Positions 3,246 through 29,964 of a stretch of 64,000 nt of DNA are shown here, piece after piece; positions within the stretch are counted from its first letter, which is position 1; each line of letters opens with the position of its first letter. The notes beneath the pieces are model-generated. The model was not told the DNA's origin. It saw nothing but the letters and a program-made list of their open reading frames with translations, and searched no databases. The stretch is from Chiloscyllium plagiosum (taxonomy: Eukaryota), in NCBI RefSeq assembly GCF_004010195.1, contig NC_057710.1, positions 137,336,503 to 137,400,502 on the forward strand, given 5' to 3'. The translations under genes were made by a program, and so were the position numbers.

Positions 3246-4599
3246 TATAATATAATTTATTATTTGGATTGTTTCTCTTTATACGAAGTGGTTTAAGACT
3301 TTGCCATGGTTTTACTATTCCTGAAGGCCGTCCCCCAGATGGCAACAGGCAATGATGCAAGTTCCAAATTTGCTTAACAAACAGTACAGAATATTCATCT
3401 GGGTCTTAGTGAAGATTACTGACCTAGCCTCTGCTAAAGTGCCTTCATCTCAATCTATAAAAATAATGGAAAATTTCACAAGAGTAAATGGTAATTGTAG
3501 CTACGTTTCACACATCTCCCAGCTTAGAATTCAGATTACAGTGATATTCAGCATGTATGCTACATAACAAAAGCAGGCATTTCTCCAAATGACACCAAAA
3601 ATTGTTAACAATTGCTTCTCAATGAGACGGAGACATAGGCCTTCCACATTCATGGTGAAAATAGATTCCATTCCTGTCACCGTATGAGACATGTAATTCA
3701 TATCCTCCAAATGATCGATGACAGTTGATACAAAGCCACAAACTTGGATCGAGATACATTTACCTCAAACTATATGAATTTCACAATTTGAAACACCTAT
3801 TAGTGTAATGATAAATAGGAGTCAAAGAATATGATCATGTTAACTCCAGGTCTAACTTCATGGAGTGCTATTCCATTCAGACTAACTTCCAAACTCAGAA
3901 TCACAGAATTGATAAGGTGAAGGAGGCCCACTTGTACAAATGGAGTTTGCTGAAGTACAAGAGCTGAACTCAAGTAAAACAGAATGGAGCATATTTTCTG
4001 AACCAGTTACCAAAGATGTAATTTCAGTATTGTATACCTTTTCATCCGATCCAGGTCTTTTTAGAACTGGCATCAACCAATGCCTTTCTATTTGCGCTGA
4101 TTTCAACGGCTCATCACTAACTCAGCATCCTGACAATGTCCAAGACTGTGGCAACAAAACAACTGATGCAACTGGATTTTTCATAGTGTATTTTATTATG
4201 TGCTTCTTTCCCAGTATGCACTGCCAAATTTAAATGGCAGGAGTTAAAACAATCCCAAAAGAATGGAATAGTTGTCAAATCGGATCAACGCAAAAGTTCG
4301 TACGGTATTAAAGACCTATTACCATTCAATCTAGGGATCACTACCTGAGCAGTATGTCAGCCAAACTGACCCACAAAGATGTGATCAATAATGATGCACA
4401 ACCAGTCAGATTTTTGACAATGTTAATGGTAGTATATTTTGTGTTGTCAAACAGCTGTCCCATCCCAGTCAAGCTATATTTGGCATAAATTGAGATTTTT
4501 GAGGAGAAAGTGAGGTCTGCAGATGCTGGAGATCAGAGCCGGAGATGTGTTGCTGGAAAAGCGCAGCAGGTCAGGCAGCATCCAGGGAACAGGAGAATC

Positions 4600-27655: not shown

Positions 27656-27905
27656 AATTTAACAGAACTACAGTAATTATTGGAAACAAAAGACATTCAA
27701 AATGTCATAAAGATACATGTAACATTTTTTAAATGCTCTAAATCTTAAGGTAGGAAAATTAGCCAAGCTAAATTGCCTATAATGTTCAGGGATGTGCAGG
27801 TTGGGTGGATTAGTCAGGAGAAATGTAGAGTAATAGGGGAATGATTGAAACTTTATTGCTGGAACAGCACAGCAGGTCAGGCAGCATCCAGGGAACAGGA
27901 GATTC

Positions 27906-27933
27906 GACGTTTCGGGCACAGGCCCTTCTTCAG
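27906..27933 (-). ncRNA. Minimal hammerhead ribozyme motif (PLE family A)
   Basis: Minus strand ATTC-CTGAAGA-A-GGGC-ctgt-GCCC-GAAA-CG-TC-GAAT: intact core, 4-bp stem I and 4-bp stem II. Confidence 0.8.
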
Positions 27934-28618
27934 GAATGAGCAGATAGAAGCAACTGAACCTTGTGGAATATCACCGTAGCAATCAGTAAGACGACAAAAA
28001 ATGTACACCTGTACATCTGCAGTGGTTTACAAGCCCTTGGATTTAGAATTTTATTATGTTCTCTTGGGTTATATTTCTAAAATTCAAATTGGTAATGCTT
28101 CCGGTCATGTAAATCCACAACAGTACAAGGCATATTTGTCATATATGTATGTCAAATGAAGTTGACAGGTGGATGTGTTTTTTGTACATAATGGACTTGT
28201 TAACCATAGCATTTAAATATCTTCAGCATGGAATTAAGATCAGCTAGAATCATGGCCATTTTTAATTACTTTTAATGCTACTTTTACTGAGTTTCTTGTA
28301 TAGCTTCAGTTGAAATTACTGTAGGTAGTTGGAATAATATTTAATTGTAGTAAAACATCAGAGTACCGTATCATTAACGCTTCTAAAAATGAAAGTAATA
28401 AACAGACTTTGGAATCAGAGAAAATATTTAAACATAATTGTTTTAAAAACAATTTTTTCCTGACCTGCAGTCTTCTTCTTGACCTCTCCGCCTCCATCCT
28501 ACTCCGACCTATCACCCTCACCTTGACCTCTTTCCACCTATCACATTTCCAACGCCCCTCCTCCAAGTCCCTCCTCCCTACCTTTTATCTTCTCCTGCTG
28601 AACACTCTCTGCTCATTC

Positions 28619-28646
28619 CTGAAGAAGGGCCTGTGCCCGAAACGTC
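28619..28646 (+). ncRNA. Minimal hammerhead ribozyme motif (PLE family A)
   Basis: CTGAAGA-A-GGGC-ctgt-GCCC-GAAA-CG-TC; first base of the stem I 3' strand is mutated (caat rather than gaat). Confidence 0.7.
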
Positions 28647-29021
28647 CAATCTCCTGTTCCCTGGATGCTGCCTGACCTGCTGTGCTGTTCCAGCAATAAA
28701 GTTTCAACTTTGATCTCCAGCATCTGCAGACCTCACTTTCTCCCCTAATAGGGGAATGGTTCTGGTTGGGATACTCTTCAGAGGGTTGGTGTGGACTTGT
28801 TGGGCCAAATGGCCTGTTTCCACATTGTAGAGATTCTATGATTCTATGAACCTGAAATACTTGAATAACTAAAGATTATTTGTAAATTTTAGTGTTTACT
28901 CGATAGATTTGTCAATACAGGGTAAATTACACAGGGCTGTCGATTAAACTCAAACAAACATGCACCATGCATTTTCTTTCATATTCACTGCCTTGGGAAA
29001 AAAAAAGAAAATATCCCCTAC

Positions 29022-29741
29022 CTGCACTTGTCTGGCTATTTGGAGAGGAAACAGTAACAGGCGGATTGGTAACAGGCCCTGCTGATGTTGTCATCGAAGC
29101 TCTGGATAAGGGTTGCCAAGACACAGCAGCATCGCCAGCAGGATAAGGCTGAAACGATGCTTGAATGGGTCTCTGCCCAGTTTCAGGCAATGGTTTCACA
29201 TGACCGGGTAAAACACCAACTAAAGGCTGTCTGGTAGCAGGATGAATAGTCTGTGAGGTTAAATGAGTATTGTACTGGGTACTGAAAACAGGCATTGCAT
29301 GATAAGAGAAGCCAGGATTAGAAGAATTGGGGGGAATACCCTGAGTAGTATTTTGAGAAGGTACGCTGTAATGAACTTGACCAGGATAGTGTCCAAGATT
29401 TGGAACATAACCAACTTGCAGAGGAGTGCTTACAAATGCAGGGTCAAACTGAGGGCTGGCAGTGATCAAATTAGGACCCAAGGGAAGTGCAGTGTGCATC
29501 TGACCAGGTCCTTGAGGAGCACCCAAGGATGTAGGACATAAAGAAGGTCTGACAACGTTGTGGACAGGTGCCTGGTAGTTATTCTGGTAATAAGTAAAGT
29601 TGTATAGTCCAGCCGTGGGGGCAAGTGGTGCTTTACTTGGCACTTGCTGATGACATTCTGGAGCAGTACTGCTGTTCTGCAGAGGTGCTCCATGTCCAGT
29701 CGAGAGAGGCTGCTGCATAGACAATAAATTCGGTGTAGAGC
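29022..29741 (-). CDS. SEC24B: SEC24B large internal coding exon (probable exon 2; Pro/Gln/Ser/Tyr-rich disordered N-terminus)
   Basis: Acceptor tttcctttttcttttcag|GC, donor GCAG|gtaggg; 720 nt open frame, phase 1-1, GSTPNLLSMQQP...SPNSQTSA(G); size and composition fit the large second exon of SEC24A/B genes; splices in frame to the two downstream exons. Confidence 0.88.
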
Positions 29742-29964
29742 CTGAAAAGAAAAAGGAAATATCACTATAGCAAATGTTCATGAAATAATAATTAAGTTAC
29801 AAATTCTAATTTGTGAGAAATCATATCTTGGTAAATGTATCAAAAAGGTGTATTTGTATTTTTGCTATGATAAGTCCAACATGAGAGTCTTTTCTTCCTA
29901 AGTTTACAGCTCCCAAATGTTAACTATACACCATTGCATTCCAAAAATAATTTGCTGCTGAGCC

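What the first reader, a model, noticed from the sequence alone, without database searches (positions are those of the whole stretch)
27831..28758. Hammerhead-armed PLE insertion carrying about 510 bp of captured DNA
Seen: one insertion bounded by a perfect 13-bp TSD splits a V-SINE. It consists of a 100-bp inverted PLE arm with hammerhead, 514 bp (27945-28458) of AT-rich non-PLE sequence, then a PLE terminal repeat with the second hammerhead. The arms are 99/100 identical, so the event is recent and single. On plus the cargo has 3'-UTR-like marks (TGTACATA Pumilio-type motif at 28183-28190, AATAAA at 28397-28402). Inference: the PLE RT switched template onto a host RNA or DNA and back, giving a composite element that moves host sequence. 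It sits under 300 bp from a SEC24B donor site and would fold into a 100-bp stem in the pre-mRNA.
Basis: partly seen in the sequence, partly recalled or inferred. Interest (0 to 1): 0.78.

Follow-up and report, generated by a model that had tools for sequence, protein, structure and literature searches.

The report
Retrotransposon repeatedly copies host intron DNA
This insertion is one of 13 scattered, near-identical copies of a stretch of a host gene's intron, likely made when the copying enzyme of a Penelope-type retrotransposon started on its own RNA and crossed onto a host RNA sharing the same 100-base end, which would be a genomic record of a transposition step not yet shown in experiments.

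Summary
The anatomy is confirmed: 13-bp TSD, 99/100 inverted arms, two hammerhead motifs, split SINE. The 'single capture of a 3' UTR' is wrong. The cargo is intron DNA of an SLC25A12/13-like gene next to a solo Penelope-like (PLE) end on C5. It has been copied to 13 sites, all starting at the same arm and stopping after 82 to at least 4395 nt. A related species has the empty donor site, and another individual of this species has the donor but shows no copies. Two more cargo families turned up (at least 40 and at least 55 copies). In 68 of 68 copies of two families the arm/cargo junction keeps exact length, and in 63 of them 1-24 donor bases are replaced, mostly by the PLE's own continuation. 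In one family 31 of 55 copies carry a tail that their donor lacks. Likely mechanism: cDNA starts on helper PLE RNA, transfers by homology onto a host RNA, and is capped by a second cDNA. PLE transport of host DNA is known; I did not find this signature in print. Main caveats: the assembly is gapped, I saw no reads of the assembled animal, and no donor RNA was seen.

The parts
27831..27843 (+). Left copy of 13-bp target-site duplication
27845..27944 (-). Constant arm: tail-less 3' end of the PLE terminal repeat, sense on minus; the inferred start of the first cDNA
   Evidence: present at this end in 13 of 13 copies; 99/100 to right repeat
27902..27937 (-). Intact minimal hammerhead motif (stem I 4 bp, stem II 4 bp)
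   Evidence: no Rfam match
27941..27944 (+). In-register swap: 4 donor bases replaced by the next 4 bases of the PLE repeat
27945..28457 (+). Cargo: 513 nt of an intron of an SLC25A12/13-like gene, donor G000:C5:40,944,149-40,943,637
28458..28745 (+). Inverted cap: PLE 3' end from the ORF stop through the tail (tail 28708-28745), joined to the cargo with at most 1 shared base
   Evidence: 99.7% to a natural PLE copy
28615..28650 (+). Second hammerhead motif, stem I broken by G>C at 28647
28746..28758 (+). Right copy of target-site duplication
27758..27843 (.). Left part of the interrupted SINE (continues from 28746 to about 28840)
29022..29754 (-). Predicted Pro/Gln-rich exon of the SEC24-type host gene; donor GT at 29021; upstream boundary approximate
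   Evidence: the exon itself got no informative Atlas hit

Best explanation
The insertion is one of 13 TSD-type copies of host intron DNA that lies beside a solo PLE end on C5, likely made when a PLE reverse transcriptase began on helper PLE RNA and then transferred by homology onto a host transcript ending in that solo end. Steps: (1) Shown: a 5'-truncated PLE end inserted into the intron (12-bp TSD; empty site in a related species). (2) Inferred: an RNA runs through the intron into that end, antisense to the host gene; its promoter is unknown. (3) Inferred: the helper PLE protein nicks both target strands about 13-17 bp apart and primes both on PLE RNA at its two start sites. (4) Pattern shown, chemistry inferred: one cDNA anneals to the donor RNA through about 100 identical bases, carrying 0-24 unpaired 3' bases, and is extended in exact register. 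(5) Pattern shown: it copies the donor for a variable length, then joins the target directly, jumps onto PLE ORF or repeat RNA, or is joined head-to-head to the second cDNA. The window copy took the last route. It is a by-product of transposition; I see no sign of a host function.
For: Nested copies share one constant end, with cargo of 82, 109, 308, 513, 796, 994, 1556, 1966, 2699, 3093, 3506, 3591 and at least 4395 nt. A TSD was found in 10 of 13. Junctions are in register in 13 of 13 and 55 of 55 copies, with at least 1 base replaced in 11 and 52; the replacement is pure PLE continuation in 9 and 48. The family 3 donor has no tail but 31 of 55 copies do. None of 23 two-armed copies has tails at both ends. 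PLE pieces in cDNA polarity follow the cargo directly in 4 of 13 family 1 copies, two of which have no right arm, and in family 3, so the top strand is the growing strand. 21 of 29 long family 3 copies stop at one base, as a template with a defined 5' end would give. A young RT plus GIY-YIG element is abundant in the genome. In vitro a PLE extends both strands and starts at two sites without needing homology to the target (PMC11167929).
Against: No donor RNA was seen: run X21 (about 2% read) had reads on the PLE arm only. The annotated-type transcript at the donor runs the other way. How an enzyme extends a primer with up to 24 unpaired bases in register is unexplained. Terminal microhomology is not enriched (p 0.56 and 0.73), and ordinary arms do not pile up at the 25-nt limit. 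15 of the 21 hard stops are followed by N. Three family 1 copies have no TSD that I could find. All copies differ from the assembled donor at shared sites, so the real donor haplotype was not seen. No intact full-length helper was recovered; the longest copy seen is truncated and frameshifted.
Confidence: 0.68

Rival explanations
1. The copies are real, but the in-register swaps, the hard stop and the zero divergence are made by gap filling or polishing in a gapped assembly.
For: The assembly has 101,977 contigs and many N runs next to PLE copies. Swap lengths are roughly even from 0 to 24 with a sharp ceiling and need no microhomology. Family 1 copies show 0 differences in 18,913 aligned bases. 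I saw no reads of the assembled animal.
Against: Swap length does not depend on arm length (p 0.87), on a local copy of the repeat (p 0.90) or on N gaps (p 0.93). Family 2 shows 0 of 12 short swaps against 63 of 68 (p 1e-10). The family 1 donor junction matches an independent contig with no differences. By inference, an assembler should prefer the donor junction, which all copies would share.
Confidence: 0.12
2. The template is the sense host pre-mRNA. The right-hand cDNA jumps onto it, copies leftwards through the antisense arm, and anneals to the left-hand cDNA, which fixes the register.
For: The host gene's sense strand is the cargo's plus strand. Annealing of two cDNAs over 100 bp explains the register simply. 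The family 3 stop lies 2-9 nt from the natural end of a second PLE family.
Against: Copies with no right arm but an antisense PLE ORF piece after the cargo would need antisense PLE RNA as template: L021 and L025, L202 and L215. L025 joins its target through a 7-nt match on the top strand.
Confidence: 0.1
3. The cDNA end invades the homologous solo end in chromosomal DNA and copies flanking DNA, with no donor RNA.
For: No donor RNA was seen. No splicing is seen, though no assembled copy reaches an exon. Strand invasion keeps register.
Against: There are 5,978 exact arm motifs, yet a few donors give 13, at least 40 and at least 55 copies while another solo end gives none. A single-base stop in 21 of 29 long copies is not expected on a continuous chromosome.
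Confidence: 0.06
4. A single chance capture of a 3' UTR by a switch out and back.
For: Taken alone, the window copy is arm, cargo and repeat inside one TSD.
Against: 14 places hold the cargo, the donor is an intron, and the motifs are at chance level.
Confidence: 0.01

Closest known systems
PLE mobilisation of host DNA in trans in Adineta vaga (Arkhipova 2013, PMC3846280; 12 of 16 passages seen)
   Same: Host DNA is moved using only the terminal repeats, with direct or inverted repeats, a TSD and an optional tail. An antisense template was proposed there too.
   Different: In the passages seen these are isolated cases, with the NRPS gene lying between two direct repeats. Here one solo end suffices, fixed donors give 13 to at least 55 nested copies, donors are mapped, and the junction swaps and tail gain show where the arm came from.
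PAc Poseidon element in vitro (Frangieh 2024, PMC11167929; parts 1-2 of 4 read)
   Same: Two RT start sites bound the tail, both strands are cut and extended, hammerhead cleavage is not needed, and priming needs no homology.
   Different: Transfer between two RNAs was not described in the parts read, and the paper calls the later steps unvalidated. The helper here has the CX2-5CxxC linker of Neptune/Nematis type.
L1 3' transduction (as summarised in PMC6431247; 12 of 13 passages seen)
   Same: Unique flanking DNA tags the offspring of one source locus, and copies are 5'-truncated.
   Different: The cargo lies upstream of the element end, there is no poly(A) tail, the source encodes no enzyme, and the terminal arm is inferred to come from another RNA.
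Retroviral strong-stop strand transfer (recalled, not from a call)
   Same: A short terminal cDNA moves to another RNA through a terminal repeat.
   Different: Here it is target-primed, the acceptor is host RNA, and an unpaired overshoot is kept in register.

Membership tests
EN+ Penelope-like element (helper) | Reverse transcriptase domain | tested here: met
   PF00078, E 9.7e-9, 35.7 bits against a cut-off of 29.6
EN+ Penelope-like element (helper) | C-terminal GIY-YIG endonuclease in the same ORF | tested here: met
   PF01541, E 4.9e-4, 20.8 bits, just under the cut-off of 22.6; the GIY-YIG motif with two Cys between its halves is visible in the ORF
EN+ Penelope-like element (helper) | 5' truncation, inverted terminal repeats, 30-40 bp tail at one end | tested here: met
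   features as listed in PMC8557442
Neptune/Nematis clades | CX2-5CxxC zinc-finger-like linker before the endonuclease | tested here: met
   C-x4-C-x2-C upstream of GIY-YIG
Neptune/Nematis clades | Placement in an RT tree | not tested
   No reference PLE proteins were on hand, so Neptune versus Nematis is unresolved
Minimal hammerhead of metazoan PLEs | Core, 4-5 bp helix I, helix II, unpaired base 5' of helix II, no helix III | tested here: met
   Met for the left motif, whose helix II is 4 bp; the right motif has helix I broken; no Rfam hit
Minimal hammerhead of metazoan PLEs | Self-cleavage | not testable with these tools
   The two motifs lie on opposite strands, so they cannot dimerise within one transcript (inference)
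PLE-mediated transduction of host DNA | Host DNA framed by PLE ends and a TSD, with a donor elsewhere | tested here: met
PLE-mediated transduction of host DNA | Empty target site in another haplotype or relative | not tested
   No reads were laid on the window site; the absence of all copies in individual X1 is indirect
Retrozyme (definition recalled) | Direct repeats with hammerheads on the same strand | tested here: not met
   The repeats are inverted and the motifs are on opposite strands
Processed retrocopy or 3' UTR capture | Exonic cargo in mRNA sense with a poly(A) end | tested here: not met
   The donor is an intron, there is no poly(A), and the motifs are at chance level

The most novel reading that the evidence does not exclude
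PLE transposition includes a homology-guided strand transfer between RNAs in which the enzyme extends a primer with up to 24 unpaired bases while keeping exact register. Any transcript that ends in a 100-base PLE remnant then becomes at once the master of a new mobile family. In this genome that is happening now, at several donors, and the families differ between individuals of one species.
Probability: 0.5. Interest if true: 0.87.

Novelty: new variant of a known kind. Interest (0 to 1): 0.75.

Why it matters
The steps after priming in PLE transposition are described as unvalidated (PMC11167929). Unique cargo acts as a barcode that separates helper RNA from donor RNA in each insertion, so the origin of the inverted repeats, the one-sided tail and the intron-keeping transport of host DNA becomes testable with PCR and a two-RNA in vitro assay. 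It also shows a route by which kilobases of ordinary intron DNA spread to dozens of sites, apparently within a species. In-register extension over a long mismatch would be an unusual polymerase property in the sister group of telomerase.

Tried and rejected
Rfam found nothing at gathering score and only two chance hits at E up to 10. A search with the far end of the longest copy was no test, because the stretch is an N run. A DNA search with the arm returned nothing because its words are too common; a pattern search worked. A splice-site exon scan gave 3 weak candidates and missed the real exons. No RNA holder was listed for the donor, and run X22 laid nothing and is no test. A read-through from the CR1-like fragment upstream of the family 1 donor was considered; the fragment is about 1.1 kb and 5'-truncated, so it is not supported. 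The GC-rich far end of L128 looked like a host promoter but is the PLE's own N-terminal coding region in antisense. An apparent microhomology enrichment (p 7e-4) came from a wrong expectation and vanished on correction. A PLE RNA 5' end at the 25-nt limit was not supported by ordinary arm ends. A BLAST test of the rejoined family 3 donor was uninformative (0 of 1 hit, controls 0 of 29); collinearity was shown by translation instead. The L082 flank is single-copy. The Atlas gave nothing for the nearby exon. Earlier findings returned nothing. Paper searches showed no title or abstract start describing in-register swaps or recurrent donor families; 'shark' was my guess at the lineage. Subscription papers and all supplements were not seen.

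Full report
Observation. The described anatomy is in the sequence: a 13-bp TSD, a 100-bp arm 99% identical to the reverse complement of the right repeat, and a 31% GC middle. The rejoined target is spanned by 19 of 56 BLAST hits to other SINE copies. Both repeats hold a minimal hammerhead motif of the kind described in PMC4209133 (part 1 of 4 read). The left one folds into stems I and II, and the right one has stem I broken. Rfam has no match. The host gene is of SEC24 type on the minus strand (PF04810, E 1.8e-15 found with recalled motifs), with a predicted donor 263 bp from the insertion. The two 3'-UTR marks are at chance level (11% and 57% of 5,000 shuffles).

A family, not an event. The cargo occurs at 14 places at about 100% identity, and all 14 candidates were scored. 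All carry the same arm on the left. One place, C5:40.944 Mb, is the donor. Its arm sits inside a 12-bp TSD with native DNA on both sides, and one contig of the related organism B runs across the site without the arm. The other 13 are copies with 82 to at least 4395 nt of cargo; the longest ends in an assembly gap. A TSD was found in 10 of 13: 13-17 bp in nine and about 110 bp in one. Two further searches found no copies beyond these and none reaching the next exon. The donor lies in an intron between EF-hand exons of an SLC25A12/13-like gene (Aralar1/2 hits at E about 1e-15). The gene's sense strand is the cargo's plus strand.

Age and polymorphism. Twelve copies show 0 differences from the longest in 18,913 bases. 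All share two or three alleles, depending on length, that the assembled donor lacks, and organism B carries the copies' allele at one of these sites. So another haplotype was likely the donor. In run X1, a different individual of organism A, one contig covers cargo and junction with no differences from the assembled donor. Its depth is 15.8 against 15.9 on the other flank, and the copies' allele is absent. That individual has the solo end but shows no copies. Only one such individual was examined.

The helper. The caps come from a young element with RT (PF00078) and GIY-YIG (PF01541, just under cut-off) domains and a C-x4-C-x2-C linker. That linker marks Neptune/Nematis elements (PMC8557442, 12 of 24 passages seen). 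A 59-nt arm motif has 5,978 exact matches against 0 for the control. Among 103 young arms from fetched loci, 5' ends peak at the hammerhead's 5' edge, where both mapped donors also end.

It is general in this genome. The first 30 motif hits on C1 are about 25 insertions. I searched three flanks, and two were multi-copy. Family 2 had 40 of 40 scored places identical out of 126 candidates, and family 3 had 40 of 40 scored places near-full-length and identical; the third flank was unique. The family 3 donor is on C17, where the young arm interrupts one old PLE that is collinear on both sides. The family 2 donor was not found.

The junction signature. For family 3 I used 30 loci picked by a query away from the junction and 29 long copies. 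I dropped 4 duplicates, the donor, and the 18 loci from the junction-biased query (L118-L135). The arm-to-cargo distance equals the donor's in 13 of 13 family 1 copies and 55 of 55 family 3 copies. In 11 and 52 of them at least one base is replaced, by up to 24 nt; in 9 and 48 the new bases are the PLE's own continuation, and the rest are fold-backs, other sequence or single changes. The window copy has a 4-nt swap. Swap length is independent of tail, local repeat and N gaps, and microhomology is not enriched once the expectation is corrected. Family 2, whose constant end is a longer inverted pair, has 0 of 12 short swaps. Of its ten long copies, six are donor-type, one has a 110-nt in-register swap and three are out of register; the other two (L071, L076) are donor-type, and two further loci did not reach that end.

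Where the arm comes from. The family 3 donor has no tail, yet 31 of 55 copies have one. The family 1 donor has a tail and 12 of 13 copies lack it. None of 23 two-armed copies has two tails. The tail lies between the two RT start sites mapped in vitro (PMC11167929). I infer that both target strands are primed on helper RNA and that one cDNA then transfers to the donor RNA. This assumes that the unseen donor haplotype has the same arm.

Which strand grows. PLE pieces in cDNA polarity follow the cargo directly in L019, L020, L021 and L025 and in family 3 copies. Several of these have no right arm. So the top strand is the continuous first strand, and in family 1 its template is antisense to the host pre-mRNA. 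In family 3, 21 of 29 long copies stop at cargo base 3249, 15 followed by N and 6 by six different sequences, while the donor runs on. That suggests a defined RNA 5' end. No donor RNA was seen in about 2% of one single-cell poly(A) run, which is weak either way.

Comparison. Transport of host DNA by PLE repeats in trans is known from a rotifer, where an antisense template was also proposed (PMC3846280; PMC6431247). Inverted repeats and one-sided tails are standard. Eight paper searches (listings only, apart from the five papers named) showed nothing on mapped donors with nested copy families, in-register swaps or tail gain. Subscription papers and supplements were not seen and could hold such descriptions.

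Verdict. This is a real, recent PLE-mediated transduction, a new variant of a known kind, with an unusually informative mechanistic signature. The family and its donor are shown. The RNA, the transfer chemistry and independence from assembly error are not. Effects on the SEC24 transcript (a 100-bp stem, and an intact hammerhead motif and AATAAA on the sense strand) are untested. Interest 0.75.

Noticed in passing
G000 whole genome: 5,978 exact copies of a 59-nt terminal-repeat motif, which points to a very active PLE family.
   Followed up: partly
L070-L072, L076, L098-L109, L136-L145: Family 2: about 2.9 kb of cargo ending in an inverted pair of PLE ends, at least 40 identical copies; 6 of 10 long copies stop at one (GT)n tract, two of them at an N gap. 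Donor not found.
   Followed up: partly
L225 (G000:C17:8,269,890-8,273,240): Family 3 donor. The hard stop of its copies lies 2-9 nt inside the end of a second PLE family's repeat, which may hold an antisense promoter or a cut site.
   Followed up: partly
G000:C5:40,938,170-40,938,270: An old PLE-like end (judged by eye) about 5.9 kb from the family 1 arm, near the length implied by the gap in L015. If that copy is full-length it would carry an SLC25A12/13-like exon.
   Followed up: no
L023 (G000:C18:20.06 Mb): Copy with a target duplication of about 110 bp and no right arm.
   Followed up: no
L015 7311-7360; L020: Caps contain pieces of a diverged terminal-repeat variant (about 87% identical), suggesting that RNAs of different PLE subfamilies meet in one event.
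   Followed up: no
L064: A PLE copy with 149-nt and 44-nt pieces of family 2 cargo at its 5' end.
   Followed up: no
window 27852-27857 and 27902-27937, minus strand: AATAAA and an intact hammerhead motif now lie on the sense strand of the SEC24-type intron, 1.1 kb past the predicted donor site.
   Followed up: no
L128 about 3460-4360: The helper's N-terminal coding region is GC- and CpG-rich and, read in antisense, mimics a CpG-island promoter.
   Followed up: yes
L069, L082, L086, L092, L093, L097: Young arms with no TSD of 10 bp or more within 1.5 kb; only L082 was tested (single-copy flank), so the others may be further cargo families.
   Followed up: partly
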